This document shows, in pieces, positions 44,431-64,000 of a stretch of DNA of 64,000 nucleotides. Positions within the stretch are counted from its first letter, which is position 1. Every line of letters starts with the position of its first letter. The notes beneath the pieces are model-generated. The model was not told where the DNA came from. It searched no databases and saw nothing but the letters and a program-made list of their open reading frames with translations. Made by a program: the position numbers and the translations under genes. The stretch spans positions 1 to 64,000 of the IMG/VR virus record IMGVR_UViG_3300031994_000051; one strand, given 5' to 3'. This stretch comes from a virus (Duplodnaviria; Heunggongvirae; Uroviricota; Caudoviricetes).

Positions 44431-44473
44431 TTAGATCCCATTGGGATCTCTAATCTGGACGAAGTTATTGATT

Positions 44474-44582
44474 GCACTTCCGTTTACAATTCCGTTTACA
44501 CTTCCGTTTACACTTCCGTTTACAATTCCGTTTACAATTCCGTTTACAATTCCGTTTACAATTCCGTTTACTAATTCAAAGT
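44474..44582. repeat. iteron set B: 9 tandem 12-bp units (A/C)TTCCGTTTACA
   Basis: cacttccgtttaca attccgtttaca cttccgtttaca ... attccgtttac. Followed by the perfect 14-bp palindrome GTTTCATGTGAAAC (44585-44598) and an AT-rich stretch to ~44700. Confidence 0.85.
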
Positions 44583-45013
44583 GTTTCATGTGAAACGTTT
44601 AATATAAAACGTTTATTATCAATGAGTTAGAAAACTTATATGAAAATATAGCATATATTGGTATAATGAATCATATAACATGGCATTACGATCGATCACA
44701 TTATAGGTTCCCAATGGGATCGTAACTGGTGATTTTGGCGTTTTGATCGTTGTCATATATGTCTTTTGGAACTAATATGTTGGTGAATCCCTTTGATGTT
44801 CAGTGTTTTATGATCCAAATGGGATCGATCTTTCGTGTTTTTCTGTTTCTTCACATATCGTTTAGCCGTCAGAATCGTGTGCGGGCAAGGTTCCATGCAT
44901 GGTTGTTCAGGGCGAGGATCCAGTTGGGATCTTTCCATCCACGGTAAGGATATGTTCCATGATGCCAAACATCAATCATGTGAAGGGAAAGATATAAAAA
45001 TTTCTGAAAAATC

Positions 45014-45050
45014 TTTGCACGTATTGGTATTTTCCGTATCTTTGCATCGT
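45014..45050 (+). promoter_or_regulatory. class-II promoter (array)
   Basis: ...tattttccgTATCTTTGCAtcgt. Confidence 0.5.
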
Positions 45051-45061
45051 AATTAAAATCT

Positions 45062-45208
45062 ATGGTTATGAATAAGAACGTATGTTTGTCAAAGGGTTGC
45101 CCTTATTTGGTAAAGAAGACAATTTATTTTCCGTGGTATGAGAAGATGTACATGTGTGCGAAGCGTTTCATGGTTGACGTGAGCAAGGTTGTTGGATGTG
45201 AAAAGTGA
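45062..45208 (+). CDS. array cassette 1: 48-aa Cys-containing peptide
   Basis: First ATG after class-II promoter 45014-45050. Hairpin+T-run 45243-45271. Confidence 0.3.
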   Translation: MVMNKNVCLSKGCPYLVKKTIYFPWYEKMYMCAKRFMVDVSKVVGCEK

Positions 45209-46116
45209 ATGATTATCAATTGTTTATTTTCGATTGCTTATAGTCGTCCTCTGTCGGGGGCGACTTTTTTGCTGATTACCCTCAATGGATGGTGAACTCA
45301 TGGGATGATCGATCGGTTAGATGGATCCCAATGGGATCGTAACCTGTTGACATCGAGGTTGTTGACGAAGAAGTCCTATGACTCTTCTTGTTTTTCTATA
45401 GTGCTGGTTGCGAAATGTTAAAATCATGATTGAAAAATGGCGATAAACCCAATAAAAAGTTTGTCGTTTTCGAGGTGTTTTCTGCATTTATTAATTTTTA
45501 TTAAGATTTATGTAAATGATTGATGTTTAATGATTTACGATGATGCGAGTTCAAAAAGTCCCCTATAGGGGAAAATTGGTTTTTTGGGTGTGGTTTATGG
45601 TTGTTTTTTGAAATGTTAAAAATGGTGTCCGAAACTGTTGATGGAACGAGTGTTCATGTCGGCGTGTTATCGATCCCATTCGGATCCGTGTCTGGGTTGG
45701 ACATCCGACGGGGGTCGGTTTGGTGACGGACGACTACTACTTCGTCCGTCGTGATCTGGTTATGGATCCCGATGGGATCTGTACTGGATCTTCCCAGCAT
45801 CGTTGTCTAGAGAGTGTCTGCATGGGATGCGCAGAGAAATGGCCTGCCTTCTGGGGAAGGATCCGAGTTGGATCCAATACTGTTGTGGATGCATGGGCCT
45901 TCATGTGAGTTTCCTGCTCATGCATGGAATTTCCTGGGTGTCGGATCCGAGTGGGATCGATCCCGTCGAGTCCAGAAAACCTGCGTAATTTTTGGTGGAT
46001 TCTCTTGACCCGTCCAAAAAATTTTCGTGACGCTGTATAGCTGGGTGTCGGATCCGAGTGGGATCAGTATCCTGTGGGACCTTCTTTCTCCCTGTATGAA
46101 AATTTTTCAGATTTTC

Positions 46117-46150
46117 CTTGACACGTGTCATATTTTTCCGTATCTTTGCC
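46117..46150 (+). promoter_or_regulatory. class-II promoter
   Basis: CTTGACAcgtgtcatatttttccgTATCTTTGCc. Confidence 0.6.
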
Positions 46151-46173
46151 GAGTAATTCAAAAACATAGAGTC

Positions 46174-46365
46174 ATGAAGGAAATATTGAAAGTGTTCTTT
46201 ATATTGCTTGTTGCTGTGTTCGTTGTTCCGCTGCTTTGGTTGTTAATCAAAGAGATATGGTGGCTTATAGTCCCGTTGTTCGCTGGGATTGTGATCGGTG
46301 ACATATTTTGGGTTGCCGTGCTCGTCATATCAATAGTTGTGATTATATGGGCTTTGGCGAGCTGA
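46174..46365 (+). CDS. array cassette 2: 63-aa two-TM membrane peptide
   Basis: Promoter 46117-46150. Hydrophobic MKEILKVFFILLVAVFVVPLLWLL... Confidence 0.5.
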   Translation: MKEILKVFFILLVAVFVVPLLWLLIKEIWWLIVPLFAGIVIGDIFWVAVLVISIVVIIWALAS

Positions 46366-46985
46366 AATTTGGTTTCGCTTGTTTCATAATCGTTTAATTG
46401 TTGGCGGTGGCCGATTCCGAGTATCGGGGTCGGCCATTCGTTTTTTGAAGGGCAATCCGACACTCATTCGGGGCAGGCACTGTGGGAGGATCCCAACGGG
46501 ATCGATCCACGCCGTGGACAGACAAAGTCGCGGGTATCACCGATATGCCTCTGATGGCCATCCAGCTGGAATTCGGATGAGGATCCCAACGGGATCGATC
46601 GGGACGTGCCAGCATATTCTACGTGTTCTTGGCAGTGGATGGGTATGCAAGAAATAGGCTTCACTCTTGACTGGAACGATCCGATTCGGATCCTTACTGG
46701 GAAAATCCAGACTCTTGTTCGGGAAGGCGGCTCTGAGGAAGGTGTCCCGTGATCGAATATCGGATCCGATTCGGATCCTTCTCTGTCAAGAAAAAGTGGA
46801 ATCTCCGTACATGGTAGGATTCCAACGTCTGGTTGTTCAGGATGCAGATCCTAACGGGATCGATCGGCTGGGAAACCATTGTTTTGATCGATCCAGATTT
46901 TTTCTGTTGATTGTTTTTGTAAATTATTGTAAAATAATTAGTTACAAAGATTAGAAAAAATAATTGAAACTTTTTTGAAAAAATG

Positions 46986-47020
46986 CTTGCCAATTCGGGA
47001 AAAAGTTGTACCTTTGTAGC
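46986..47020 (+). promoter_or_regulatory. class-II promoter variant (TACCTTTG), embedded in the ~115-bp conserved upstream module 46910-47022
   Basis: cttgccaattcgggaaaaagttgtacctttgtagc. Confidence 0.5.
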
Positions 47021-47084
47021 ACAAACAAAGGGGGAAACCCCGAAGGACAGACAACACAATTATCAACAATCTAAATTCAAAGTT

Positions 47085-47411
47085 ATGGAAAACAATATCG
47101 AAACCATCACAATCGCAATCAACGGAAAGAGTTACAGACTTGTAGAGGTCAGCGCGGAGCAGGCAAATGGTGAGAAAACCATGTGTCTTGTCACGTTGGT
47201 GACACCTGTCGGTGGAATCACCAAAGCATATCCATTGAAGGATATTTGCGTCCCCGAGGGGACATACGACAACGAGGGCGACCGCTTCATCGTGCGCCAC
47301 TGCACGGACGCGGAGTTCGAGGAGTACAAGAAGCACGCAAAGGAAATAGAGGAGCCAGCCATGCTGCTGCAAGTCCTGCTTGACGTTGCATTGTCGGAAA
47401 TCGACTGCTAA
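47085..47411 (+). CDS. array cassette 3: hypothetical protein
   Basis: Promoter 46986-47020; terminator 47437-47478. Confidence 0.55.
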   Translation: MENNIETITIAINGKSYRLVEVSAEQANGEKTMCLVTLVTPVGGITKAYPLKDICVPEGTYDNEGDRFIVRHCTDAEFEEYKKHAKEIEEPAMLLQVLLDVALSEIDC

Positions 47412-47436
47412 ACTGATTTTTGCCATAATTTTTTAG

Positions 47437-47478
47437 GTCGGGGTTGTCCCTTTCGGGGGCGACCCCTTCCTTTTTTTG
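47437..47478 (+). terminator. intrinsic terminator (cassette 3)
   Basis: GC-rich hairpin gtcgggg...cgacccc + T7. Confidence 0.6.
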
Positions 47479-47877
47479 TGTGTGTCGGCAAGCAACTTCC
47501 GTCGGCAGGAATAAAGGCGGATGCTGGGCAGGATCGATCCCGTTGGGATCCCGTCCAGCCGACGAAGACTTCCATGAGGCGGGAGGTTACTTCGGTGAAG
47601 ACACATCGATGGACATCGATGGGACGATCCAACTGGGATCCGTCACGGCGGAGGGTACCACTCTCTATGTATGTCTTCTTTTCTTCGGCATTTCTTCGGC
47701 ATTTGGTGGCGGATGCGGATTGGCCCCAGTAAGGATCCCAATGGGATCTGTGTCGATCGAGAACCATGACTGCATCCTTTCTTAGAATTTTTCTTGGTTT
47801 TTGTTTTTGTAAATTATTGTAAATTAATTAGTTACAAAAATTAGAAAAAATAATTGGAAAATTTCTCGATTTTTTAT

Positions 47878-47911
47878 CCGTTGTATTGATATTTTTCCTA
47901 TCTTTGCAAAG
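47878..47911 (+). promoter_or_regulatory. class-II promoter, within conserved module 47800-47912
   Basis: ccgttgtattgatatttttccTATCTTTGCAaag. Confidence 0.55.
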
Positions 47912-48008
47912 TAATAAAATATTGTTGTAAGATTATCTATAAGAATCTAAACAACTTGTGTTAAAAACAACAAAGACATAGTTATAAACCATCAAAAATT
48001 AAAGAGTT

Positions 48009-48575
48009 ATGGCAAAACAAATTACAAAGTCACAACTTCAAGCAATGCTTGAAAACATTCAAGGCGAAACCGAAATCACAGTCACAGTCAAGGGCGAGGT
48101 CAAGATGAACAAGACAAACAACCCTTTTTACGAGAAGCAGGGTCGCGCTTGGGTAGCGAAGGATAATGTTGAGAAAATACAAACGAGCGTGTACGCTTTC
48201 GGCGGATCGTATGAGGAAAGGGTCAACGAGGCTCTCGTTGCAGACGGAAGCGCAGGCGACTTCAAGGCCGCTTCGTTGCCGTGGGGCGAGTGGATTGTGG
48301 AGGGCAAGACCATTTCCCACAACGGCAAGGTGTACGCCCGTTGCTACATCGTGGAGGGAAAATCGTCTGTTGTTTCAGTGTCGTACTTGGTCAACGGCAA
48401 GGAAGCCACATCGGAGCAGGAGCAGAGCATCAAGGACTTCACCCCAGAGAAGAAGCCGAGCGCGAAGCAGGAGGCCGCAGGGCTTGAAAGTGGAAAGCAG
48501 GTAATCCCCAATAACATCGACTTGGACAAGGTTGTCCGCGTTGAGGTTGACGGGGCGGAGTACGAAATCGCATGA
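48009..48575 (+). CDS. array cassette 4: hypothetical protein
   Basis: Promoter 47878-47911; terminator 48599-48636. Confidence 0.6.
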   Translation: MAKQITKSQLQAMLENIQGETEITVTVKGEVKMNKTNNPFYEKQGRAWVAKDNVEKIQTSVYAFGGSYEERVNEALVADGSAGDFKAASLPWGEWIVEGKTISHNGKVYARCYIVEGKSSVVSVSYLVNGKEATSEQEQSIKDFTPEKKPSAKQEAAGLESGKQVIPNNIDLDKVVRVEVDGAEYEIA

Positions 48576-48598
48576 CGGAATGTCAGTGACAAAATGTC

Positions 48599-48636
48599 AG
48601 GGGCGGCTCACTTGGTGGGTCGCCCTTTCCTTTTCC
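48599..48636 (+). terminator. intrinsic terminator (cassette 4)
   Basis: gggcgg...tcgccc + T-run. Confidence 0.6.
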
Positions 48637-49213
48637 ATTCCAGACAAGACCGACAGAGTTGGTGGAGGATCGCTGAATCGGATCCCATCGGGATCGATCG
48701 CCCTGGTGAATCCAGGGATGTCTGGACATCCCCTGGTATCCCGTCCAGTTCGGATCCCATCGGGATCGATCACTGTCCAGCATTCACCTCTTCCTCCTGC
48801 CGAAAAATTCAGCAAGGTTTTTTTGAAAAGTTTTCCAGATAAATATCCTGATTTCTTCTATGATTTTCCCACGGAAAATCCCATCGGGTTTTTCTTCATT
48901 TTCCCCGTGGGTTTTTTCCGTGGTTTTGGGCGGGGATTCCAGAGACTGGCCTCCCCGCCTTCTTTGTCTGGCAAACCCCCCCAAGAGATGTGATCCGTGA
49001 AGGAAGTCATTGGATCCCAATGGGATCGATCCTGTGGCCATCTCGTGTTCCATCTCGAACACGGCGTATTATGGATCCCGATGGGATCGATTCAGAACAG
49101 GTCCCCTTTCTTATTCCTTTTTCTGTAAGTTTTTGGTAATGTTTTTGTAAATTATTGTGAATCAAATTGTTACAAAGATTATCAAAAATAATTGAAAAAA
49201 ATCTCTCAAAATA

Positions 49214-49250
49214 CTTGACATATTGATTTTTTTCGTATCTTTGCTTCGTC
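49214..49250 (+). promoter_or_regulatory. class-II promoter, within conserved module 49130-49250
   Basis: CTTGACAtattgatttttttcgTATCTTTGCttcgtc. Confidence 0.6.
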
Positions 49251-49300
49251 AAACGACAAAGGGAAACAAACAATTTACAAACAATCTAAAACACAAGACT

Positions 49301-49597
49301 ATGGCAAAGCAACACAAAATTTACTGCGAAGGCTGCTATTGCAGGCCAATGCAGGTAATCGACAAGAACGGCAACACGGAATGGCGTTGGGTGGTGGTCA
49401 CATTTTCTGACGACTGCACCGAGAACGGCGAGGAAGTGGACATCAATGTCAAAGCGAAAACCGAGGAAGGGCTGGTCAATTCATCCGAGAGCGAGGACAA
49501 TGGCGAAACCGAGAAAATCGTCAAGAACTCAATGACGATGAAAGACCTCTACAAGGGAATCCCTGGCCTCGACCCAGACATGGACGAAGACATCTGA
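49301..49597 (+). CDS. array cassette 5: hypothetical protein (N-terminal CxxC, acidic C-terminus)
   Basis: Promoter 49214-49250; terminator 49627-49664. Confidence 0.55.
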   Translation: MAKQHKIYCEGCYCRPMQVIDKNGNTEWRWVVVTFSDDCTENGEEVDINVKAKTEEGLVNSSESEDNGETEKIVKNSMTMKDLYKGIPGLDPDMDEDI

Positions 49598-49626
49598 CGA
49601 CTTGTCTGTCCAGCATGACAAGATGG

Positions 49627-49664
49627 CCGACATCACTTTGGTGGTGTCGGCTTTCCTTTTTCGT
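49627..49664 (+). terminator. intrinsic terminator (cassette 5)
   Basis: gccgacatcac-tttggtg-gtgtcggc + T-run. Confidence 0.65.
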
Positions 49665-50122
49665 CAAGCTGCTCAGGAAAATCGTGATCCTTCGGTCCAG
49701 ATTCTGATCCCATTGGGATCCAAGACGCTGGATACCAGACTCTTGGATGTATGAACTCGGGTGGTCAGGACGACCTTGAGTCTGGAAAGGTTCCCGTGAT
49801 CTGGTATGGATCCGAGTGGGATCGATCGACAGGTCCCGTCGAGACTCTCTTCTTTGACGACAGGGTGGTATTGAGTACATGACGACATTGATCCTGAAGA
49901 TGTACTTTTGATCTGGTATGGATCCAAATGGGATCGATCCTGTCAGAATCTTGTTCTCTCGATGTCGTGCCTGTTAACTATTCGGTTCATTGTGCAAGAT
50001 TACTCTCACGAGATACTCAACCGTCGGTTAATCCGTTGGATCCCAATGGGATCCGTGATGACCGACGAAGTTTTCTTCGTTTTTTATTCCATAATTTTCC
50101 AGAAAAATTTTTTCCGTTTTTT

Positions 50123-50160
50123 CTTGCGTGGTATTCGGAAAATACTTATCTTTGCATCGT
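50123..50160 (+). promoter_or_regulatory. class-II promoter
   Basis: CTTGCGTggtattcggaaaatactTATCTTTGCAtcgt. Confidence 0.6.
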
Positions 50161-50182
50161 CAAACTTAAAATAAGAAAAACT

Positions 50183-50722
50183 ATGGAAAAAAGAAACGGA
50201 AAATTCGTGGGGAAAAAGGACATTCCCTTCGACAACGACAAAATCGCGGACATTCTTCAACTTAAATGCCGCATACTTGAAATGTTCAGGTCGCGCAATG
50301 TTACCGTAAGTTTCGCCCAGAACATTCCGAACGAGAACTACTATACAGCCGCAAGCGACTTCTCTAAGCTGATGAGTACGGAGCTTACAGTCAGGTTCAA
50401 GCCAGTTACGTCAAAGCGTGGGCTTGTTCAGAGGGGGGCTGGTTTGTGCAAGCGCAAGGTGTCGGCGATCGATCCTTGCGTGCATATCATGTTCTACAAC
50501 CAGCAGGGAATCGACGAGGTGACTGGTGATAGCGAGATACAGCCTTGTGTTTTCATAGGGGTTCATGGGTTTCAGGAAAGGGGATACAGGAAACATCATT
50601 GGGCAGACTATTCTCCGAAGCCTTCCTTCGGCTATGGATATGAAATAGAAACTTTGTGGCAAGATGCGGTCAAACCAGCTATGAATCAAATTTGGAACGA
50701 CATCAACTTGCTGATAGAGTGA
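50183..50722 (+). CDS. array cassette 6: hypothetical protein
   Basis: Promoter 50123-50160; terminator 50744-50780. Confidence 0.6.
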   Translation: MEKRNGKFVGKKDIPFDNDKIADILQLKCRILEMFRSRNVTVSFAQNIPNENYYTAASDFSKLMSTELTVRFKPVTSKRGLVQRGAGLCKRKVSAIDPCVHIMFYNQQGIDEVTGDSEIQPCVFIGVHGFQERGYRKHHWADYSPKPSFGYGYEIETLWQDAVKPAMNQIWNDINLLIE

Positions 50723-50743
50723 TTGTTATAGAAGCAATAAGGT

Positions 50744-50780
50744 AACGGCTTGGGCTTGTGTCCGAGCCGTTTCTTTTTTG
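50744..50780 (+). terminator. intrinsic terminator (cassette 6)
   Basis: acggcttgggc...gagccgt + T-run. Confidence 0.6.
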
Positions 50781-51020
50781 TGTGATAGTACGTCTTGACA
50801 CAGATGAGTCAGTGGATGCCCGTCGATCAGATCCCGATGGGATCCGTTACAGTGGGTTCAGGATCACCATGAGTCCGAGGTTGCGATTGACTTGCTTGAT
50901 GGACTTGGACGTCAATCATCTCGATGCCAGCTGGTTAGGATCCCATTGGGATCGTAACTGGGCATTCGCTGCCGATTCGATCGTCGAATTTTTGTCGAAT
51001 TTTTTCTGAAAACAAAAACA

Positions 51021-51056
51021 AAAAAATCCGCACAATTTTTGTACGGATTTTCTTTG
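51021..51056. terminator. bidirectional terminator (cassette 7 end)
   Basis: atccgcacaa-ttttt-gtacggat flanked by A-run and T-run. Confidence 0.5.
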
Positions 51057-51071
51057 GGGTTTTTCTGGAAT

Positions 51072-51257: not shown

Positions 51258-51263
51258 TGATTT

Positions 51264-51506: not shown

Positions 51507-51520
51507 TATTCCGTTTGTTT

Positions 51521-57212: not shown

Positions 57213-57232
57213 AATTCAAAAACAACAGAGCT

Positions 57233-57481
57233 ATGGAAACTACAAACAGAAAATGGTATCGCTCCGACTTCACGGCAAAGGGGTTGTTTGACAACACGGA
57301 TATTGATTCGGAATACTACACGGCAGAGAGTGACGCGGAGGCGATCGATCACGGTAAGGAACTCGCGGCAAACGGGGTTGACTTCGCCGACATCGGTCAC
57401 ATCGACATCAAGCTGACCTATATCGCGGAGGTTGACGACACGCAGGAAACTTGGCCAGAGAAAAGAACTGTTTATTATTGA
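57233..57481 (+). CDS. array cassette 14: hypothetical protein
   Basis: Promoter 57179-57212. Confidence 0.5.
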   Translation: METTNRKWYRSDFTAKGLFDNTDIDSEYYTAESDAEAIDHGKELAANGVDFADIGHIDIKLTYIAEVDDTQETWPEKRTVYY

Positions 57482-57693
57482 AAAACAAAACCAGAATTTT
57501 TCAGAGAAAAAAGATCGGGGGAACATCCAAAAGTTCTCCCGATTTTTTTATTTGGGAAAATCCAGAGAAATTCCCACAGGGAATACATGGCGATCGATCC
57601 TGAACTGGATCCCACTGGGATCTATCCAACTTTCTCATCTTCAGAGTCTTGGATGCCATGTTTCATGTGGAACAAAAATTTTACAGAAAAAGC

Positions 57694-57730
57694 TTGACAC
57701 GTATCGATATTTTTCTTATCTTTGCACCGT
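57694..57730 (+). promoter_or_regulatory. class-II promoter
   Basis: CTTGACAcgtatcgatatttttctTATCTTTGCAccgt. Confidence 0.6.
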
Positions 57731-57771
57731 CAATTCAAAAACAGAGTATTAACCTATAAAAGAAAAGACCT

Positions 57772-58305
57772 ATGAAGTACACAAAAATTTTAAGGACTGT
57801 AGCCGATCGTTTAGACACTCAATACGGAGTGTTGTTAACCGACGGAAGAATCATTTCCCTTTACAACGAGGATAACCAGTTTTACCTGAGATGGGACTTC
57901 CCGATCGATCTGGAAACGATGACATACGAACCCCGTTTGGCTGACGAAAACAATGGGGAGATTTCCCTCAACTCACTTGACAGAATTGTTATCGCAGGCG
58001 TGGTCAAGTGCTATGACGAATGCAACTATTATCATGGCACATATCCAGAGGATTTCACCTGCCCAGAGCAGGAACGCTTGGAGATCAATCGTATCGAAGC
58101 CTTCTTCAAGGATAACGGTTATAATGTGTCAAGAGAAGCGATCGAACACAATTTCAACGCTTGGCTCGGTGACATGAAGTCAGGCTACCGTGACGACATC
58201 AACGGATACCACCTGTTCAGCCCGTGCGGTTGCAACCCGTTGTCAATGTGTCTGTCAACGCTCAACACACTGTGTGACGACTGGCAACAGACATACACCT
58301 GCTGA
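57772..58305 (+). CDS. array cassette 15: hypothetical protein
   Basis: Promoter 57694-57730; terminator 58339-58374. Confidence 0.55.
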   Translation: MKYTKILRTVADRLDTQYGVLLTDGRIISLYNEDNQFYLRWDFPIDLETMTYEPRLADENNGEISLNSLDRIVIAGVVKCYDECNYYHGTYPEDFTCPEQERLEINRIEAFFKDNGYNVSREAIEHNFNAWLGDMKSGYRDDINGYHLFSPCGCNPLSMCLSTLNTLCDDWQQTYTC

Positions 58306-58338
58306 GTTTTGCTCATACTCATATCATATTGTTTTTTT

Positions 58339-58374
58339 CCGATCGATCACACCCAGTGGTCGATCGGTTTTTTT
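58339..58374 (+). terminator. intrinsic terminator (cassette 15)
   Basis: ccgatcgatcacacccagtggtcgatcgg + T7. Confidence 0.6.
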
Positions 58375-58664
58375 ATTATCCTTTATTCATCTTTATTCTT
58401 TGATGGAGCATCTCCTCGTCAGGCTGGCGCCAGTCAGATCGATCCCACTTGGATCCATATCGACACGGATACATCCTCCTCATCCCAAGAGTCTGAAGAC
58501 GAACCAGTTAGGATCCCACTGGGATCGATCCTGTGCAGCTGTGCAGGATGTCTGCACACTTGGATCTTTTTCCCAGAAAATTTCCAGAATAATTTTGTAA
58601 ATTATTGACAGATAATAAGTTGGAATATATTTTGAAAAATAGTTGAAAATTTTCTTGGAAAAAG

Positions 58665-58701
58665 CTTGCCAATTCAGATAATTTTCGTATATTTGCATCG
58701 T
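58665..58701 (+). promoter_or_regulatory. class-II promoter (TATATTTG variant), within conserved module 58594-58701
   Basis: cttgccaattcagataattttcgTATATTTGCAtcgt. Confidence 0.6.
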
Positions 58702-58752
58702 CAAACGACAAAGGAACAAACATTATCATTAACATCTAAAAAACAATCAACT

Positions 58753-59391
58753 ATGGGACAGTATTATAAGCCAATCGTCCTGAAGAAGGACTGGAAAAAC
58801 GAGGAACAACCGATCGCTGGTACGCTTTCGCCTTATGACTATGACAACGGCGCGAAGCTCATGGAACATTCCTATGTAGGAAACAGTTTCGTCAAGGCCG
58901 CTATGAAGATGATCGATCTTATCGGTCAGGGAAATGCCGTGCCTTTCGTCTGGTGCGGTGACTATGCCGATCCAGTCGATACATCAAACCATCCCGTCAC
59001 GAAAGATAAAGACGGAAATCTCGTTGGTGGAATCGATTTGTATTCGTGTGCTTGCGCATGGCTTGGCGAGGACAAAAACAGCAAAGAGTACGAAGATCTG
59101 AAAAATACTCTGCAAAATGTAAGCACAGATGAAAAGTGTTACATCATCAACGAGACGAAGAAGCAGTTCGTGCGCATCCCCGATTATGATAAGGACAAGT
59201 GGTTTATCCATCCCCTTCCGATCCTGTGTGCCGACGGCAACGGTCGGGGCGGCGGAGACTACGGCTACTATGCGTCAAAGAACATGAAGCTTGTCGGAAC
59301 ATGGGCACATGACGAGATTCGTCTTGCCGAAAAGAAATCCGACACGGAGGGCTACGAGGATTGCGGCTGGATTCCAGAGTGCGAGGAATAA
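58753..59391 (+). CDS. array cassette 16: hypothetical protein
   Basis: Promoter 58665-58701; terminator 59422-59462. Confidence 0.6.
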   Translation: MGQYYKPIVLKKDWKNEEQPIAGTLSPYDYDNGAKLMEHSYVGNSFVKAAMKMIDLIGQGNAVPFVWCGDYADPVDTSNHPVTKDKDGNLVGGIDLYSCACAWLGEDKNSKEYEDLKNTLQNVSTDEKCYIINETKKQFVRIPDYDKDKWFIHPLPILCADGNGRGGGDYGYYASKNMKLVGTWAHDEIRLAEKKSDTEGYEDCGWIPECEE

Positions 59392-59421
59392 GGGTTCAAC
59401 CGACTTTCATAACTGACTTTG

Positions 59422-59462
59422 GGCGATCGATCCGATTAAGGATCGATCGCCTTTTCTTTTTC
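59422..59462 (+). terminator. intrinsic terminator (cassette 16)
   Basis: ggcgatcgatccgattaaggatcgatcgcc + T-run. Confidence 0.7.
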
Positions 59463-59617
59463 AGAGTGTCAACCCAGACGCAGTATCCCGTCGGTGAATA
59501 TGGCCCCAGTATGGATCCCACTTGGATCGATCGATACGGATTCGTCTTCAAAAGTATCCTCCTGATTTTCAGCAAATTAATTTCCAGAAAAATTCAAGAA
59601 AAATTTCCAAGAAATTT

Positions 59618-60313: not shown

Positions 60314-60740
60314 ACATAAGACTGAACCATAATTCTCGACACATACTTGCTTTTATGGAAAAGTCCCGATCCAATTCGATCAGGGCTTTTCTTTTTTATG
60401 CAAAGACGAAACCACGACTCATCGTTCATTCTTTACCGAAACTTCAGGATCCGACTGGGATCCTTGAATTCCGATCCAGATCATTTAAGCTGCGATCTCA
60501 CGCGATCGATACAATGTTAGCCGATCGATCGAATAATCATACATCATAAGTTAAGTATGTTATATACATGATAAACAATATGTTATGAATATAATCGGAC
60601 AAAATCGGACAAAATTCGATCGTGAACCAGAGCATTTGATCGCAACTTAAAAGGATCTGGATCGGTTTTATGATCCCAGAGGGATCCATGACCTGTGCAG
60701 GAGTATTCTTTATACTTCTTGTCAAAATAAATATAGAAAC

Positions 60741-60793: not shown

Positions 60794-61066
60794 ATGGAAA
60801 AATTTTATACTTTTGATGGAGAGAATATTTCCGAAGACGACATAAGGGGAGTGTTCTCGGAAAACCCAGATTGCGGCATGGCTGTCGTATATACAGAGCG
60901 TACTGGTGGAAGGGAACTGGTTAACGGAAGGATGACATGGATCGATCGCGTCCAGACAAAGGTTATTCCGTTCGCTAAGAGGAAACCAGCTTTGGACTAC
61001 ATTGGGTTCCTGAGATCCCAGACGAACCGATCGATCTCGGACATGCACATAGAGGTTGCTGACTGA
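60794..61066 (+). CDS. array cassette 18: hypothetical protein (atypical upstream region)
   Basis: No class-II promoter. Preceded by a 37-bp palindrome 60741-60777. Confidence 0.4.
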   Translation: MEKFYTFDGENISEDDIRGVFSENPDCGMAVVYTERTGGRELVNGRMTWIDRVQTKVIPFAKRKPALDYIGFLRSQTNRSISDMHIEVAD

Positions 61067-61177
61067 AGTGAAGAGAGCTGCTGGCGCTGGTTAGGATCCC
61101 AGTGGGATCCTTTCTTGGACCGAGGAGATGGTCGTTACGGGCGATGATCGATCGTTGTCGAAAAATATCAGAAAAAG

Positions 61178-61215
61178 CTTGACACGTATTGATATTTTTC
61201 GTATCTTTGCACCGT
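61178..61215 (+). promoter_or_regulatory. class-II promoter
   Basis: CTTGACAcgtattgatatttttcgTATCTTTGCAccgt. Confidence 0.6.
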
Positions 61216-61253
61216 CAAACAAAGTAAGACTAACCGATCAAAATCACAACATT

Positions 61254-61841
61254 ATGGCAAACTGGGCATTAGTAACTTATAAATGCGAGTGCAGGGACAA
61301 CCAGCAGGCTGAGGCTTTCACCAAGCTTCTGGACAAACTGAAATCTTTGCCGAAACCATACGCCGAATCAGACTTCGGAAACCTTTGGATGGGATGTGTG
61401 GTGAAGGCACTGGGTGGAGACCCCGACGAAATCAAATGCAGGGGTAAGATATTTGATGACTACGATATTGACGGAAATGTGGTCACTCTCGTCACAGAAC
61501 AGGCTTGGAGTGAGCAGGAGGAGTTCCGCCACCTTGTTGAGGAGACGTATCCTGGCATGAAAATCTGGTATTGCTGCGAAGAGTCCAACGAAGGCATTTA
61601 TTGCACAAACGACACGGAAAGAAAGTTCTTCAAGAGCTGGTACTACCTTGACTACGAAGACGGAGGTGAGTATTTCGACACAATAGAACAGGCTGCGGAG
61701 TTCGTCAGCGACAAGATTGGTATACCAGTCGAGCCTACGATCGAATCGATCGAGGAAGAGATTGAGAAATACCAAGAGGATAACGACTGGTCTGACGAAA
61801 GCTGGATGAATTTTTACGTATTCGATATAATCGACGACTGA
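61254..61841 (+). CDS. array cassette 19: hypothetical protein
   Basis: Promoter 61178-61215; terminator 61877-61915. Confidence 0.55.
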   Translation: MANWALVTYKCECRDNQQAEAFTKLLDKLKSLPKPYAESDFGNLWMGCVVKALGGDPDEIKCRGKIFDDYDIDGNVVTLVTEQAWSEQEEFRHLVEETYPGMKIWYCCEESNEGIYCTNDTERKFFKSWYYLDYEDGGEYFDTIEQAAEFVSDKIGIPVEPTIESIEEEIEKYQEDNDWSDESWMNFYVFDIIDD

Positions 61842-61915: not shown

Positions 61916-62084
61916 TTGCCGACACAAAAAACTCTGAAGTGGCAGGAGATGAGCTGATCTGGATCGATCCCATTGGGATCCGTTTCTGGGCCACGGGTGC
62001 CTTCGGCGTTCTCGGATCCAGATGGGATCGTTGGATTCCAGAATTTTTCTTGGAATTTTTCTGGAAAATTTTTTCGAGATTTTT

Positions 62085-62122
62085 CTTGGATCGTATTGAT
62101 ATTTTTCGTATCTTTGCATCGT
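62085..62122 (+). promoter_or_regulatory. class-II promoter
   Basis: cttggatcgtattgatatttttcgTATCTTTGCAtcgt. Confidence 0.6.
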
Positions 62123-62145
62123 CAAACAATAAAACAGAAAACACT

Positions 62146-62934
62146 ATGAAAAACATTGAAAAGTATTGTCCTGTATGTGGACACAAGTTCGTTCAAGGAG
62201 AAAGCGAATACAACAACGAAACGGCTAACACTGACTATGTTTGCACAGAATGTGGTTGGGAAGGAACTCACGATCAAGTTCTCGATACTGACAAAATCAT
62301 CGAGGATCTTGTTGATGAAATCGACAATGAAGGCATTGAAATCACAACAGAGGATGCAACCAACGTAATTAAGGAGATCCGTTGTGGAGAAAGTTACGAA
62401 AACGCGATCAAGTCGATCGTCAACGGAATACTGGATTGTCTCGGCAATGAAGATGACATCGATCTTTCCGACAAGCTCCAGACCTACAATGGAAGCTACA
62501 ACAAGCGCACCCTCAAAAAAGATGGTCTTTGTATCGTCACTTGGCCAGATTCCCAATCGCTTTGCGAGATGGAAAATTTCTGGGAACACGCTTGGCTTAT
62601 AAATGACGACTACGGCCTTAGAAGGTTCGGATCCTGCGCCTATGTCGTTGAGGAGGACTGGTACACGGAAAATGACATTATTCCAAACGATCTGGTTGAT
62701 ACGATTAGGAGAGCCATTGATCGAATTGGATGCAACGGATTAATCAATGTTGAAAACGACGGGATCGAATTATGTGATGGTGAGGATCCAGAAGGAAACC
62801 CAGAAGGGGAATGGCACTATGTCACCGAGATATTGCCTTGTGGGTTGAAGATGGACAACGGGGATTTCTATGAATACTCGGATCTGTCTGAAAGTGAACT
62901 TGAAAAGGTGCTGGACTATGTAAACGGTATCTGA
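62146..62934 (+). CDS. array cassette 20: hypothetical protein with N-terminal Zn-ribbon (CPVCGH...CTECGW)
   Basis: Promoter 62085-62122; terminator 62956-62998. Confidence 0.6.
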   Translation: MKNIEKYCPVCGHKFVQGESEYNNETANTDYVCTECGWEGTHDQVLDTDKIIEDLVDEIDNEGIEITTEDATNVIKEIRCGESYENAIKSIVNGILDCLGNEDDIDLSDKLQTYNGSYNKRTLKKDGLCIVTWPDSQSLCEMENFWEHAWLINDDYGLRRFGSCAYVVEEDWYTENDIIPNDLVDTIRRAIDRIGCNGLINVENDGIELCDGEDPEGNPEGEWHYVTEILPCGLKMDNGDFYEYSDLSESELEKVLDYVNGI

Positions 62935-62955
62935 TATAAAAAAATAAAAACAGAT

Positions 62956-62998
62956 AAAACCGATCGATCACAATTGGGTGATCGATCGGTTTTCTTTT
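62956..62998 (+). terminator. intrinsic terminator (cassette 20)
   Basis: aaaaccgatcgatcacaattgggtgatcgatcggtttt. Confidence 0.75.
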
Positions 62999-63124
62999 TA
63001 TAAACTATTCGGACGACAGATATGAGCAGATCGCATGGAACATGAGATCCCAGTGGGATCAGACTTCCAGTGAAGAAGACTCGTCGAATTCAGAAAAAAT
63101 AATATAGATTTTCCTTGCGTGGTA

Positions 63125-63162
63125 TCATATTTTTTCGTATCTTTGCACCGTAATTCAAAAAC
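63125..63162 (+). promoter_or_regulatory. class-II promoter
   Basis: CTTGCGTggtatcatattttttcgTATCTTTGCAccgt. Confidence 0.6.
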
Positions 63163-63171
63163 AGGAACAAT

Positions 63172-63864
63172 ATGAAAACAGAACAGCCAAGATGGGAAAA
63201 CGATTCCCCAATTCAAATCAACATCAGTATCAATGTGGAGAACGGAAAGATCAACGGAGCGAGGGAGTTCGCCGATCTCCTTTGCTCGAAACATCTTCAC
63301 GTCAAGGGCTATAGGATCCGCTTCACACAGAAACGCAACAACAAGAAGATCGTTGTCGTAGAGGCCAACTATCATATAATCGGAACTATTGACATACGCA
63401 AAGGCTATGTTTTCGGGAGCAATTGCATCATGTATGGTTCACCAGACAGGGAGAACGAAGGCAGCAAACAGGTAATCTCAGTACTTTTCCACGACGTATG
63501 CGGAATGAGAAACGAAATCGCCAGAGTGGAGAACGGTATGCTCAACACGTCCGACATCGAGCTTGCCCAGAGGATAGTCAACATCTACTCGGATTTCGTC
63601 GAGAGGATGATCGTACCAGTTACAAGTGAAAACTCCAAGTTCGACAAGATCTGCGACATAGTGTTGTCACTCAAAAAGTTTAACGGAAGGATTGTCGTCG
63701 ACGACAACACAAGACTGGATGCCAACGCCAATGGGAAACCAATTATCGTGAAGATAATCAAATACGGTGGAGTGTGTGACAACTATGGGGAAGATCACTT
63801 CTTTTATGAACTGGACGACAGATCCCTTGAATTAATAAAGGAATACATCGAAAGACAAAGATAA
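63172..63864 (+). CDS. array cassette 21: hypothetical protein
   Basis: Promoter 63125-63162; terminator 63884-63927. Confidence 0.6.
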   Translation: MKTEQPRWENDSPIQINISINVENGKINGAREFADLLCSKHLHVKGYRIRFTQKRNNKKIVVVEANYHIIGTIDIRKGYVFGSNCIMYGSPDRENEGSKQVISVLFHDVCGMRNEIARVENGMLNTSDIELAQRIVNIYSDFVERMIVPVTSENSKFDKICDIVLSLKKFNGRIVVDDNTRLDANANGKPIIVKIIKYGGVCDNYGEDHFFYELDDRSLELIKEYIERQR

Positions 63865-63883
63865 ACGGCATTGCATATTCTGT

Positions 63884-63927
63884 CGCCGATCGATCGCAAT
63901 TGGGTGATCGATCGGCTTTCTTTTTTG
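63884..63927 (+). terminator. intrinsic terminator (cassette 21)
   Basis: cgccgatcgatcgcaattgggtgatcgatcggc + T-run; near-duplicate of the cassette-20 terminator. Confidence 0.75.
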
Positions 63928-64000
63928 TGCCACCCAGAAATATCCCAAGAGGAAAGGATGATGCTGAGCTGGACGGGATCCCACTGGGATCGATCTTGGC

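What the first reader, a model, noticed from the sequence alone, without database searches (positions are those of the whole stretch)
44433..63993. 20-kb array of at least 23 autonomous single-gene cassettes separated by ~54 copies of a 17-bp perfect palindrome
From ~45 kb to the window end the genome stops looking like a compact phage operon. Each small gene (48 to 262 aa, no similarity between cargoes) has its own near-identical ~38-bp promoter and its own rho-independent terminator. Genes are separated by 300 to 900 bp spacers carrying 1 to 6 copies of GGATCCCAnTGGGATCC, commonly 60 to 105 bp apart. The palindrome is absent from every coding region and from the first 44 kb. The array has three strand blocks: plus 45.0-50.7 kb, minus 51.0-55.7 kb, plus 56.0-63.9 kb. 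Repeated promoter plus stem-loop units flanking heterogeneous cargo closely parallel the PeSL (promoter-early stem-loop) modules that drive modular gene shuffling in hyperplastic regions of T4-type phages. They also recall integron cassette arrays, but here each cassette carries its own promoter and there is no attC or integrase. The palindrome (GGATCC arms, CANTG centre) can form a 6-bp-stem/5-nt-loop hairpin in ssDNA or be bound by a dimeric protein. The cargo could be host-takeover or anti-defence genes.
Basis: partly seen in the sequence, partly recalled or inferred. Interest (0 to 1): 0.9.

Follow-up and report, generated by a model that had tools for sequence, protein, structure and literature searches.

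The report
Phased palindrome arrays between phage cassettes
A large uncultured phage of Bacteroidota carries a gene-shuffling region of at least 29 kb in which small unknown genes, each with its own promoter and most with a detected terminator, are separated by non-coding spacers holding 1 to 6 copies of a conserved, regularly spaced 15-bp palindrome, and related phages gain and lose genes exactly at these palindromes and promoters.

Summary
The array is real, but the repeat is not a "perfect 17-bp palindrome". Only 4 copies match the stated pattern. The true motif is a degenerate 15-bp quasi-palindrome, GATCC-CAnTG-GGATC, with invariant arms.

There are 52 copies in 44433-63992, all outside my gene calls. 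Elsewhere there are 2 in 51.7 kb. The array continues at least 10 kb past the window end.

Twenty of 21 genes have a Bacteroidota-type promoter (TTG..TAnnTTTG). Fourteen have a scanned intrinsic terminator. All cargo proteins are ORFans.

Four closely related metagenomic contigs share the architecture. All 17 structural differences end in a palindrome (8) or a promoter/5'UTR/ATG module (9). One crossover lies in the palindrome centre. This supports PeSL-like modular shuffling.

Three results are new:
- Palindrome cores are about 95% conserved between relatives, against about 86% for genes and other spacer DNA.
- Spacing between palindromes is quantised (about 72/83/93/103/116 bp) although the DNA between them is unrelated. 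That is helical phasing.
- A diverged relative has one ATCCCGnCGGGAT per spacer, sharing the ATCCC-N3-GGGAT core.

Best reading: a phased operator array for an unidentified oligomerising DNA-binding protein, inside a PeSL-like early region. It is a new variant of a known kind.

The parts
44433..64000 (.). Cassette array: 21 small genes and 52 palindrome copies. It runs off the window end and continues at least 9.9 kb in the identical contig.
44348..44577 (+). Iteron cluster at the left edge of the array: 25-bp unit x2.6 at 44348-44412 and 12-bp unit TTCCGTTTACAA x8.2 at 44478-44577. An AT-rich stretch follows to about 44700. Candidate replication origin.
44433..44932 (.). Palindrome cluster, 4 copies (44433, 44706, 44811, 44916)
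45015..45265 (+). Cassette 1: promoter 45015-45044, gene 45062-45208 (48 aa), terminator 45242-45265
45323..46066 (.). Palindrome cluster, 6 copies (45323, 45671, 45764, 45859, 45943, 46050)
46118..46438 (+). Cassette 2: promoter 46118-46148, gene 46174-46365 (63 aa, hydrophobic), terminator 46406-46438
46488..46862 (.). Palindrome cluster, 4 copies within 3 mismatches (46488, 46581, 46677, 46762) plus a 4-mismatch copy at 46846 with perfect arms
46987..47466 (+). Cassette 3: promoter 46987-47016, gene 47085-47411 (108 aa), terminator 47440-47466
47535..47749 (.). Palindrome cluster, 3 copies (47535, 47625, 47733)
47881..48627 (+). Cassette 4: promoter 47881-47906, gene 48009-48575 (188 aa), terminator 48599-48627
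48680..49089 (.). Palindrome cluster, 4 copies (48680, 48752, 49012, 49073)
49215..49652 (+). Cassette 5: promoter 49215-49243, gene 49301-49597 (98 aa), terminator 49625-49652
49705..50054 (.). Palindrome cluster, 4 copies (49705, 49808, 49920, 50038)
50124..50771 (+). Cassette 6: promoter 50124-50154, gene 50183-50722 (179 aa), terminator 50744-50771
50829..50954 (.). Two palindromes (50829, 50938) between the two convergent terminators. There is no promoter in this gap.
51020..51558 (-). Cassette 7: promoter 51558-51528, gene 51506-51264 (80 aa), terminator 51054-51020
51619..51841 (.). Palindrome cluster, 3 copies (51619, 51722, 51825). Relatives L136 and L141 carry one extra unit here.
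51906..52565 (-). Cassette 8: promoter 52565-52535, gene 52519-52196 (107 aa), terminator 51935-51906
52653..53050 (.). Palindrome cluster, 5 copies (52653, 52736, 52847, 52941, 53034). L141 lacks one 93-bp unit.
53110..53777 (-). Cassette 9: promoter 53777-53748, gene 53713-53171 (180 aa), terminator 53149-53110
53860..54075 (.). Palindrome cluster, 3 copies (53860, 53966, 54059)
54131..54770 (-). Cassette 10: promoter 54770-54741, gene 54708-54190 (172 aa), terminator 54162-54131
54895..55004 (.). Palindrome 54895 plus a degenerate copy at 54988. This is the left junction of the g55130 cassette, which is replaced in L136 and absent in L141.
55130..55735 (-). Cassette 11: promoter 55735-55705, gene 55678-55130 (182 aa). 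It varies between relatives.
55806..55822 (.). Single palindrome between the divergent promoters. It is the right junction of the g55130 cassette loss in L141.
55927..56466 (+). Cassette 12: promoter 55927-55956, gene 56002-56466 (154 aa). Homologues P0001-P0008 are 140-158 aa (P0001-P0007: 154-158 aa), which confirms the short start.
56585..56601 (.). Single palindrome. Relative L046 has two here, an indel of one 94-bp unit.
56671..57168 (+). Cassette 13: promoter 56671-56701, gene 56752-57168 (138 aa). Absent in L136 through a promoter-to-promoter crossover.
57180..57481 (+). Cassette 14: promoter 57180-57206, gene 57233-57481 (82 aa). No palindrome upstream.
57607..57623 (.). Single palindrome
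57694..58367 (+). Cassette 15: promoter 57694-57724, gene 57772-58305 (177 aa), terminator 58339-58367
58440..58527 (.). Two palindromes (58440, 58511)
58666..59452 (+). Cassette 16: promoter 58666-58695, gene 58753-59391 (212 aa; matches phrog_3156, function unknown), terminator 59421-59452
59513..59529 (.). Palindrome that forms the left crossover of the 934-bp g59690 cassette indel against L136
59619..60313 (+). Cassette 17: promoter 59619-59649, gene 59690-60313 (207 aa). Absent in L136.
60447..60687 (.). Two palindromes (60447, 60671). 60447 is the right crossover of the g59690 indel.
60794..61066 (+). Gene 18 (90 aa). No consensus promoter found. Conserved at 90% aa in L136.
61094..61110 (.).
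61179..61841 (+). Cassette 19: promoter 61179-61209, gene 61254-61841 (195 aa)
61965..62030 (.). Two palindromes (61965, 62014)
62086..62993 (+). Cassette 20: promoter 62086-62116, gene 62146-62934 (262 aa, N-terminal zinc ribbon), terminator 62956-62993. Absent in L136.
63045..63061 (.). Single palindrome
63115..63916 (+). Cassette 21: promoter 63115-63145, gene 63172-63864 (230 aa), terminator 63885-63916
63976..63992 (.). Last palindrome in the window. The array continues beyond it.

Best explanation
This is the hyperplastic region of ORFan genes in an uncultured phage of at least about 263 kb. The phage has a T4-type terminase and Bacteroidota-type promoters. The region is presumably the early region.

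Each small ORFan is a self-contained unit. A promoter matching the host sigma-A consensus (TTG-N~19-TAnnTTTG) drives it, and an intrinsic terminator usually closes it.

Between one unit's terminator and the next unit's promoter lie 1-6 copies of a 15-bp quasi-palindrome, GATCC-CAnTG-GGATC. I propose these are operator sites for a sequence-specific dimeric DNA-binding protein that has not been identified. The protein would oligomerise between sites lying on the same face of the helix, about 8, 9 or 10 turns apart. It would loop or coat the intergenic DNA, and so insulate the strong transcription units from each other, switch them off together, or both.

The palindromes and the promoter/5'UTR modules are the only sequences repeated through the array. 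They are therefore also where recombination occurs. Whole cassettes and single ~100-bp palindrome units are gained, lost and swapped precisely at them, as in PeSL-type modular shuffling.

Shown: the anatomy, the enrichment, the extra conservation, the quantised spacing, the breakpoints, and the related motif in a diverged lineage. Inferred: that a protein binds, that it oligomerises, what it does to transcription, and that these genes are expressed early.
For: Enrichment and location
- 52 copies lie in 19.5 kb, against 0.24 expected. In the extended sequence, 62 perfect-arm cores lie in 29.4 kb, against 2 in 51.7 kb outside the array.
- None lies in a gene.

Sequence-specific recognition rather than structure
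- The arms GATCC/GGATC are invariant in 60 of 60 copies. Positions 7, 8, 10 and 11 are 75-92% C, A, T, G. The centre is free.

Purifying selection
- Cores are 95.9% and 95.1% identical to L136 and L141. Promoters are 89-94%, genes 85-88% and other spacer DNA 85-87%.

Spacing constraint without sequence constraint
- Distances between neighbouring palindromes fall in peaks at 71-73, 81-85, 93-96, 103-109 and 115-118 bp. None falls at 74-80, 86-89 or 97-102 bp.
- For the window alone, the Rayleigh test gives p of about 0.0006-0.003 for periods of 10.5-11 bp.
- The fillers between palindromes are only 25% identical pairwise, which is the random expectation.
- Loop-dependent repression in vivo shows an apparent helical repeat near 11 bp per turn (PMC3001091).

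Older than the GATC context
- The diverged relative L160 has the same layout: gene, terminator, one palindrome, promoter. Its motif is ATCCCGnCGGGAT, with 8 hits against 0.49 expected. It shares the ATCCC-N3-GGGAT core.

Not a cellular repeat
- 185,579 species genomes contain no palindrome pairs, and 6 single hits where about 4 are expected.

Recombination
- All 17 structural differences from four relatives end in palindromes (8) or in promoter/UTR/ATG modules (9).
- The g59690 indel crosses over between palindrome positions 7 and 11.

Promoters and terminators
-. The promoter consensus is taken from PMC7366714.
Against: - No candidate binding protein was found. Pfam scans of 40 ORFs in the first 44 kb gave no credible regulator; the only helix-turn-helix match is a sub-threshold MerR hit in ORF 5668-6198. 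I saw only about 81 kb of a genome of at least 263 kb.
- Two palindromes sit between convergent terminators where there is no promoter. The distance from the last palindrome to the -7 box varies from 83 to 207 bp and is only weakly phased (p about 0.055). A simple promoter-operator role therefore does not fit every copy.
- The quantised spacing rests on 29 distances in the window. The distances from relatives are not independent. Periods from 10.3 to 12 bp fit about equally well.
- Part of the extra conservation of the cores is ascertainment, because I chose sites that have perfect arms in the window.
- The link to L160 rests on one locus.
- There are no expression data. 'Early' and 'monocistronic' are inferred from promoter type and terminators.
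Confidence: 0.5

Rival explanations
1. The palindromes are dedicated recombination sites. A phage-encoded recombinase or structure-specific nuclease recognises the GATCC..GGATC arms and exchanges strands in the central spacer. This would actively excise and insert promoter-bearing cassettes, making an integron-like capture system that needs no common promoter.
For: - Two whole-cassette indels (g59690 in L136, g55130 in L141) and six unit-size indels have their junctions in palindromes.
- In the g59690 event the two parental palindromes share only about 14 of 17 bp and have no flanking homology. The crossover maps to the central ACT, between positions 7 and 11. That is little homology for RecA/UvsX-type exchange.
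- Palindromic arms around a free centre is the layout of tyrosine-recombinase core sites (established knowledge).
- The PeSL authors themselves speculated that a protein targets their stem-loop (PMC2839356).
Against: - About half of the events (9 of 17) cross over in promoter, 5'UTR or ATG modules instead. That points to general recombination at any repeat.
- No integrase or recombinase domain appeared in the ORFs scanned or in the precomputed Pfam hits of L134 and L161.
- Recombination sites do not need helically phased tandem arrays of up to 6 copies.
- Units do not fold like attC.
Confidence: 0.17
2. The palindromes serve replication or methylation. They would be clusters of GATC pairs, densest next to an iteron-type origin, acting as binding sites for an initiator, a sequestration factor or a Dam-sensitive protein. 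Their function would have nothing to do with the cassettes themselves.
For: - Each site carries two GATC 11 bp apart, and often a third (GGGATCGATC).
- GATC observed/expected is 5.8 in spacers and about 2 across the rest of the window.
- Palindrome density falls from 4-6 per spacer next to the iteron/AT-rich block at 44.3-44.7 kb to 1 per spacer further right.
Against: - The L160 version of the motif (ATCCCGnCGGGAT) contains no GATC but occupies the same position. GATC is therefore not the conserved feature.
- CC/GG and CA/TG next to the GATC are conserved as well.
- No Dam-type methylase was found in the parts of this genome that I saw.
- Sites extend at least 29 kb from the iterons, one per transcription unit.
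Confidence: 0.1
3. The units are selfish or passively expanding repeats, REP/MITE-like or slippage-driven minisatellites. They accumulate in dispensable spacer DNA and matter only as accidental substrates for recombination.
For: - Copy number per spacer differs between close relatives, for example 6 against 5, 4 against 3 and 2 against 1.
- Indels are of unit length.
- The motif is confined to a narrow lineage.
Against: - Fillers between palindromes are unrelated in sequence (25% identity). The arrays are therefore not recent tandem duplications, yet their lengths stay quantised.
- Palindrome cores are conserved well above the surrounding DNA.
- A related motif holds the same position in a lineage about 50% diverged at protein level.
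- No host copies and no transposase were found.
Confidence: 0.1
4. The palindrome works as a hairpin in RNA or single-stranded DNA. It would be the counterpart of the PeSL stem-loop, acting as attenuator, RNA-stability element or replication-fork signal.
For: - It can form a 5-7-bp stem with a 3-5-nt loop.
- PeSL stem-loops are often G-run/C-run hairpins (PMC2839356), and this core is CCC..GGG.
Against: - The arms never covary. They are invariant in sequence.
- The sites lie downstream of strong terminators, in DNA that is probably untranscribed.
- There is no T-run.
- There is no strand or orientation bias with respect to the genes (Fisher p = 0.26).
- A hairpin role does not explain the helical phasing.
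- Rfam finds nothing.
Confidence: 0.05

Closest known systems
PeSL (promoter-early stem-loop) cassettes in hyperplastic regions of T4-type phages (Arbiol et al. 2010, PMC2839356; Comeau et al. 2014, PMC4122927)
   Same: - The phage has a T4-type terminase.
- The region is packed with ORFans.
- Each ORFan is flanked by a strong host-type early promoter with an AT-rich upstream part, plus stem-loop terminators.
- Indels and replacements between close relatives cross over inside the repeated regulatory modules, at the -10/-7 box, the 5'UTR/SD-ATG, or the stem-loop.
- A short G/C-run palindrome is part of the module.
   Different: - The promoter is the Bacteroidota -33/-7 type, not sigma-70.
- In most gaps the module is stretched to 190-965 bp instead of about 100 bp.
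- The terminator and the conserved palindrome are separate elements.
- The palindrome occurs in helically phased arrays of up to 6 copies and is sequence-invariant.
- About half of the region is non-coding.
- Mini-circles were not tested.
Stoperators of Cluster A mycobacteriophages (PMC9283540)
   Same: - There are tens of copies of one short protein-binding motif spread through intergenic gaps of a phage genome.
- One regulator would be able to silence many units.
   Different: - Stoperators are asymmetric 13-mers bound by a monomer and oriented with transcription. They lie inside transcribed DNA and belong to temperate phages with a known repressor.
- Here the sites are symmetric and show no orientation bias. 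They lie behind terminators, occur in phased tandem arrays, and no repressor is known.
Integron cassette arrays (attC/IntI)
   Same: - It is a linear array of unrelated single-gene cassettes, each bounded by an imperfect palindrome.
- Cassette content differs between close relatives.
   Different: - Each cassette has its own promoter and most have a detected terminator.
- The site is 15 bp, not a 57-141-nt folded attC.
- No integrase was seen.
- Many crossovers lie in promoters rather than in the palindrome.
Small repression loops between phased operators (LacI O1-O3 92 bp, GalR OE-OI 113 bp; PMC3001091)
   Same: - The operators are palindromes of about 15-17 bp.
- Centre-to-centre spacings are about 70-120 bp, restricted to values one helical turn apart.
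- The apparent repeat is 10.5-11 bp.
   Different: - Those systems have 2-3 operators at one promoter.
- Here more than 60 sites are spread over at least 29 kb, some of them in promoter-less gaps.
- The protein is unknown.
REP/BIME elements of bacterial chromosomes
   Same: - They are short imperfect palindromes, strictly intergenic, often clustered behind terminators, and variable in copy number.
   Different: - This motif is specific to a phage lineage. It is absent from 185,579 species genomes beyond chance.
- No RAYT was found.
- The spacing is phased.

Membership tests
PeSL-type hyperplastic region | Lies in a T4-type phage genome, in a region rich in non-conserved ORFans | tested here: met
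   - TerL matches Terminase_6N / phrog_2. Its nearest GenBank relatives are Prevotella Lak phages at 31%.
- 20 cargo proteins have no Pfam family above threshold; one matches phrog_3156 and one matches phrog_33327, both of unknown function.
PeSL-type hyperplastic region | Repeated strong host-type early promoter with an AT-rich upstream region in front of the ORFans | tested here: met
   - 20 of 21 genes are preceded by TTG-N15-23-TAnnTTTG, mostly CGTATCTTTGCA, within a 55-69-nt repeat family.
- The consensus comes from PMC7366714.
- Promoter activity was not measured.
PeSL-type hyperplastic region | Stem-loop/terminator fused with the promoter in one compact intergenic motif of about 100 bp | tested here: not met
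   Terminators exist, but 190-965 bp of palindrome-bearing spacer separates them from the next promoter in most gaps. Only the 57168-57232 gap is compact.
PeSL-type hyperplastic region | Indel and replacement breakpoints between closely related phages fall inside the repeated modules | tested here: met
   All 17 differences over 50 bp against L136, L141, L158 and L046 end in palindromes or in promoter/5'UTR/ATG modules.
PeSL-type hyperplastic region | Formation of excised mini-circles during infection | not testable with these tools
   This needs inverse PCR or junction reads from infected cells.
Integron | Tyrosine integrase IntI next to the array, with attI and a common promoter Pc | tested here: inconclusive
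   No integrase domain appeared in the ORFs scanned or in the precomputed Pfam hits of about 81 kb. More than 180 kb of the genome was not seen. Every cassette has its own promoter.
Integron | attC: an imperfect inverted repeat of 57-141 nt that folds as a single-stranded hairpin at the 3' end of each cassette | tested here: not met
   Units between palindromes give ssDNA folding z-scores of -0.1 to -2.8 and form no long hairpin. The conserved element is 15 bp.
Stoperator system | Asymmetric site oriented with the direction of transcription and lying within transcribed DNA | tested here: not met
   The site is symmetric and has no orientation bias (Fisher p = 0.26). It lies downstream of terminators.
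REP/BIME | Hundreds of copies dispersed in the host chromosome, with a RAYT transposase | tested here: not met
   185,579 species genomes contain 0 palindrome pairs, and 6 single 20-mers where about 4 are expected.
CRISPR array | Identical direct repeats of 23-47 bp separated by unique spacers of constant length | tested here: not met
   The repeats are degenerate 15-mers. Spacing is 49-118 bp. Genes lie between the clusters.

The most novel reading that the evidence does not exclude
The palindromes are recognition sites of a dedicated phage protein that both organises the early region and catalyses or targets cassette exchange. The protein would form phased looping arrays and promote exchange in the centre of the site. 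This would be a promoter-carrying 'phage integron' with its own site-specific machinery. It would also be the protein long suspected, but never found, for the stem-loops of T4-type PeSLs.
Probability: 0.15. Interest if true: 0.9.

Novelty: new variant of a known kind. Interest (0 to 1): 0.65.

Why it matters
PeSL-mediated shuffling has so far been described only for T4-type phages of Proteobacteria and cyanobacteria. Whether a protein targets the PeSL stem-loop is an open question raised by its discoverers (PMC2839356).

This locus shows the same evolutionary behaviour in a distant phage of Bacteroidota, but with a sharply defined motif. The motif is invariant, more conserved than its surroundings, and helically phased. 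That makes it an ideal bait for identifying such a protein.

The locus is also a rare case of a phage spending about 10 kb of a 19.5-kb stretch on non-coding DNA under a spacing constraint. This points to higher-order organisation of early transcription units.

Finally, it marks out at least 37 rapidly exchanged ORFans as candidates for host-takeover or anti-defence functions in phages of Bacteroidota, whose nearest GenBank relatives infect Prevotella.

Tried and rejected
**No close relatives in curated collections**
- Megablast of both window halves against GenBank phages found nothing.
- IMG/VR scans for the palindrome gave only chance hits.

**Metagenome scan mostly wasted**
The apparent best loci, L028 and L107, are eukaryotic subtelomeric simple repeats (TTAGGG next to GGGATC-type minisatellites) and were discarded.
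- It did yield L046, which led to the real relatives.

**Motif orientation**
- My first impression was that the GATC extension is oriented with the gene strand. Counting rejected this (15 right / 7 left in the + blocks against 1 / 3 in the - block; p = 0.26).

**attC-like folding and known RNAs**
- attC-like folding of the units was rejected.
- Rfam found no hits at E up to 0.1.

**Cargo function**
- Pfam and PHROGs identified no function. The only hits were weak or sub-threshold Pfam matches and PHROGs of unknown function.
- PDB sequence search gave nothing.
- The AlphaFold model of g56002 (pLDDT 69) has no PDB fold match.
- The conserved gene just left of the array (42401-42970) gave a better model (pLDDT 84) but also no fold match.

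**Search for a binding protein**
- Pfam scans of 40 ORFs in the first 44 kb found chaperones, clamp-loader-like ATPases, an exonuclease, an amidase and similar proteins, but no credible regulator, methylase or recombinase. The only helix-turn-helix match is a sub-threshold MerR hit in ORF 5668-6198.

**First-step-transfer idea**
- I considered a T5/SPO1-like terminal region that enters the cell first. I dropped it because the terminase is T4-type, where headful packaging is expected (established knowledge), and no end is visible.

**Walking along the genome**
- Walking further was blocked. The exact protein at the end of L134 was not returned by the homologue search.

**Other arrays**
- Other Bacteroidota-phage promoter arrays in IMG/VR, such as L187 with 6 promoters, and further relatives (L159, L163-L165) have no such palindrome.

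Full report

With up to 3 mismatches there are 53 hits. Of these, 52 lie in 44433-63992 and one at 12892. Dinucleotide-preserving shuffles give 0.24.

A position matrix of 60 copies (window plus downstream extension) shows what is actually conserved:
- GATCC and GGATC are present in 60 of 60 copies.
- Between the arms, C, A, T and G at positions 7, 8, 10 and 11 are 75-92% conserved, and the centre is free.
- The flanks are only weakly conserved.

Seven 17-mers and 22 15-mers are perfectly symmetric. The repeat is therefore a degenerate 15-bp quasi-palindrome, not a perfect 17-mer.

**2. Anatomy of the array**

A scan for the Bacteroidota promoter form TTG-N15-23-TAnnTTTG finds 25 sites after 44.4 kb, 21 of them followed by an array gene. 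Most read CGTATCTTTGCA. About 8 similar sites (CCGTATATTTGCA) precede genes in the first 44 kb. The consensus is taken from PMC7366714.

These sites define 21 genes of 48-262 aa in three strand blocks. One gene (60794) has no recognisable promoter. The promoters belong to a 55-69-nt repeat family. A simple scan flags intrinsic terminators after 14 of the 21 genes, and many stems are built from CCGATCGATC...GATCGATCGG.

All 52 palindromes lie outside the genes, between the terminator of one unit and the AT-rich upstream region of the next promoter. Spacers add up to 9.9 kb of 19.5 kb, so only about 49% of the region is coding.

Palindrome number falls from 4-6 per spacer (585-965 bp) on the left to 1-2 per spacer (190-480 bp) on the right.

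Two palindromes lie between the convergent terminators at 50.7-51.1 kb, where there is no promoter. One lies between the divergent promoters at 55.8 kb.

The cargo proteins have no paralogues. No cargo protein reaches a Pfam threshold. One matches phrog_3156 and one matches phrog_33327, both of unknown function. Rfam finds nothing.

**3. What genome is this?**

The first 44 kb encodes a T4-type large terminase, a ClpB-like ATPase, a clamp-loader-like ATPase, a 5'-3' exonuclease, DnaK, DnaJ, an amidase and an SPFH protein. The nearest terminases in GenBank phages are those of Prevotella Lak megaphages, at 31%. There is no nucleotide match in GenBank phages.

The window is 100% identical to two contigs of ENA assembly ERZ27256871, one of 90,046 bp and one of 173,474 bp, which abut at about window position 41.5 kb. 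The genome is therefore at least about 263 kb.

In the 173-kb contig the array continues for at least 9.9 kb beyond the window. That stretch holds 9 more palindromes and 10 more promoters, now heading operons of 1-3 genes. The array is thus at least 29.4 kb long with at least 37 genes.

Outside the array I saw only 2 perfect-arm palindromes in 51.7 kb.

The motif is not a cellular repeat. Among 185,579 species genomes there are no palindrome pairs, and 6 single 20-mers where about 4 are expected by chance. IMG/VR holds only chance hits.

**4.

Four metagenomic contigs at about 80-90% nucleotide identity share the architecture, palindromes included: L158 and L046 (both JGI Ga0247611_10002176), L136 (JGI Ga0452095_0008417) and L141/L142 (ENA).

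L136 lacks 6 of about 24 window genes in the shared span and carries others of its own.

I traced every structural difference over 50 bp, 17 in all.
- Eight end in palindromes.
  - Six are gains or losses of single units (66, 85, 93, 94, 104 and 111-116 bp). Most of these lengths are not multiples of three, which argues that the spacers are non-coding.
  - Two are whole-cassette indels: g59690 (934 bp, in L136) and g55130 (817 bp, in L141).
- Nine end in the promoter -7 box, the 5'UTR or at the ATG. Examples are g56752, g62146, g64246 and g67662.

In the g59690 event the recombinant palindrome carries the left arm of one parental site and the right arm of the other. The crossover lies between positions 7 and 11, and there is no flanking homology.

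This is the behaviour described for PeSL cassettes of T4-type phages, where crossovers map to the -10/SD region, the AT-rich part or the stem-loop (PMC2839356).

**5. Evidence that the palindrome is more than a passive repeat**

(a) *Extra conservation.* In alignments with L136 and L141 the 15-bp cores are 95.9% and 95.1% identical. Promoters are 89-94%, genes 85-88% and other spacer DNA 85-87%. Some ascertainment bias applies, because sites were chosen for perfect arms in the window.

(b) *Quantised spacing.* Distances between neighbouring palindromes form discrete peaks at 71-73, 81-85, 93-96, 103-109 and 115-118 bp. None falls at 74-80, 86-89 or 97-102 bp among 72 distances pooled from the window and three relatives. 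The window alone (n = 29) gives Rayleigh p of about 0.0006-0.003 for periods of 10.5-11 bp.

(c) *Unrelated fillers.* The DNA between palindromes is 25% identical pairwise, which is the random expectation, beyond 3-6 bp next to the site. The equal lengths are therefore not recent duplications. Length, not sequence, is what is constrained.

Operators restricted to integral-turn spacings of 70-120 bp are the hallmark of cooperative binding and small-loop formation. In vivo the apparent repeat is about 11 bp per turn (PMC3001091).

(d) *Sequence invariance.* The arms are invariant in sequence rather than covarying. The sites lie behind terminators and show no orientation bias (p = 0.26). All three points argue against an RNA or ssDNA hairpin role. 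Units do not fold like attC.

(e) *A related motif in a diverged lineage.* In L160 the conserved gene bordering the array is 54% identical in protein. L160 has the same layout: gene, terminator, one palindrome, about 110-125 bp, then a promoter (cGTATCTTCGCA). Its palindrome is ATCCCGnCGGGAT, with 8 hits against 0.49 expected, and 5 of the 6 in the small-gene region are intergenic. It shares the ATCCC-N3-GGGAT core with the window motif G-ATCCC-AnT-GGGAT-C.
- L160's lineage is GATC-poor and CCGG-rich. The window's lineage has no CCGG at all and twice the expected GATC.
- The non-shared positions therefore differ in the direction of each lineage's restriction-site avoidance. This is an inference from one locus.
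- It suggests that GATC is not itself the functional feature.

More distant relatives have compact single-gene arrays with other promoter modules and no palindrome (L137). Other relatives also lack it.

**6. Interpretation**

The best-supported account is a PeSL-like hyperplastic region of presumably early genes. Its intergenic modules contain, besides promoter and terminator, an operator for an unidentified dimeric DNA-binding protein that oligomerises. In this lineage the operator has expanded into helically phased arrays.

I infer that the protein loops or coats the spacers to insulate or co-repress the strong units. The data do not show this. Sites in promoter-less gaps, and the variable distance to the promoter (83-207 bp, weak phasing, p about 0.055), fit insulation or architecture better than classical operator control.

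Recombination at the sites is shown. Whether it is merely homology- or microhomology-driven, or protein-assisted, is open. The mid-site crossover with minimal homology keeps the second option alive, at about 15%.

The rivals are scored in their own sections: an origin- or methylation-related role, selfish repeats, and hairpins.

**7. Comparison and novelty**

The locus works like PeSL regions and meets three of four testable PeSL criteria. It fails the criterion of one compact ~100-bp promoter/stem-loop motif. It is not an integron, a stoperator system, REP/BIME or CRISPR; each fails a defining feature that was tested.

In the searchable literature I found no description of phased palindrome arrays between phage early cassettes. 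That search covers open-access papers only.

I rate the locus a new variant of a known kind, with interest 0.65.

**8. Limits**
- Only about 81 kb of a genome of at least 263 kb was examined.
- There are no expression, methylation or binding data.
- The host is inferred from the promoter type and from distant similarity to Lak-phage terminases.
- Spacing statistics from relatives are not independent.
- The L160 link rests on one locus.
- Cargo functions remain unknown: a fold search on one cargo model (g56002) and one on the flanking gene 42401-42970 were uninformative.

Noticed in passing
window 1-64000; also L136, L141, L158, L161: CCGG is completely absent from the 64-kb window, where about 100 sites are expected, and from all close relatives. 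CTAG has an observed/expected ratio of 0-0.17, and GATC about 2 even in coding DNA. More distant relatives show different profiles: L137-L140, L151-L153, L159, L163 and L164 have almost no GATC (0-0.2 per kb), and most of them, as well as L160 and L165, do contain CCGG. These are lineage-specific patterns of restriction-site avoidance.
   Followed up: partly
window 44348-44700: This is the only strong tandem repeat in the window: a 25-bp unit x2.6 (GGCACTTCCGAATACCCTTTTTTAG) and a 12-bp iteron x8.2 (TTCCGTTTACAA), followed by an AT-rich stretch. It sits exactly at the left edge of the array. Its position is conserved in L158, where the iterons are less homogeneous. It is a candidate replication origin.
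   Followed up: partly
window 46897-46974, 47787-47864, 49125-49202, 58593-58652: A second repeat of about 60-78 bp, AT-rich, with an inverted repeat (TTGTAAATTATTGTAAAATAATTAGTTACAA), is inserted between the last palindrome and the promoter at four cassettes. It may be another operator or an UP-like element.
   Followed up: no
window 8433-10340, 14628-15668, 1603-2739: The phage encodes its own chaperone set: a full-length DnaK/Hsp70 (E = 1.7e-211), a DnaJ with its zinc-finger domain, and a ClpB-like AAA+ protein.
   Followed up: no
window 53110-53149, 58339-58367, 59421-59452, 62956-62993, 63885-63916: Many terminator stems are built from the same GATC-rich arms (CCGATCGATC...GATCGATCGG). 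The terminators are therefore a further partly repeated element and contribute to the excess of GATCGATC in the spacers (37 copies).
   Followed up: no
L137:3500-15000 (ENA ERZ28613101, STEW19 scaffold_451): A distant relative (39% aa identity in one cargo gene) has a compact single-gene array. Its repeated module is different, about 65-80 bp: TGTTAACACG-N~22-GTATATTGG...CATCAAA...ATAGCACTATG. It has no long spacers and no palindromes. This is possibly another promoter class.
   Followed up: partly
window ~41500-41600: In assembly ERZ27256871 the genome is broken into two contigs (90,046 and 173,474 bp) whose ends overlap by about 92 bp inside gene 40885-41976. The reason for the break (strain variation or a repeat) was not examined.
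   Followed up: no
L163:19000-20534 (ENA ERZ1667807 scaffold_36): Another relative, AT-rich and lacking both GATC and CCGG, shows a cluster of 7 copies of TAATTnnAATTA in the gaps between small minus-strand genes. This may be an analogous element or mere AT-rich chance.
   Followed up: no
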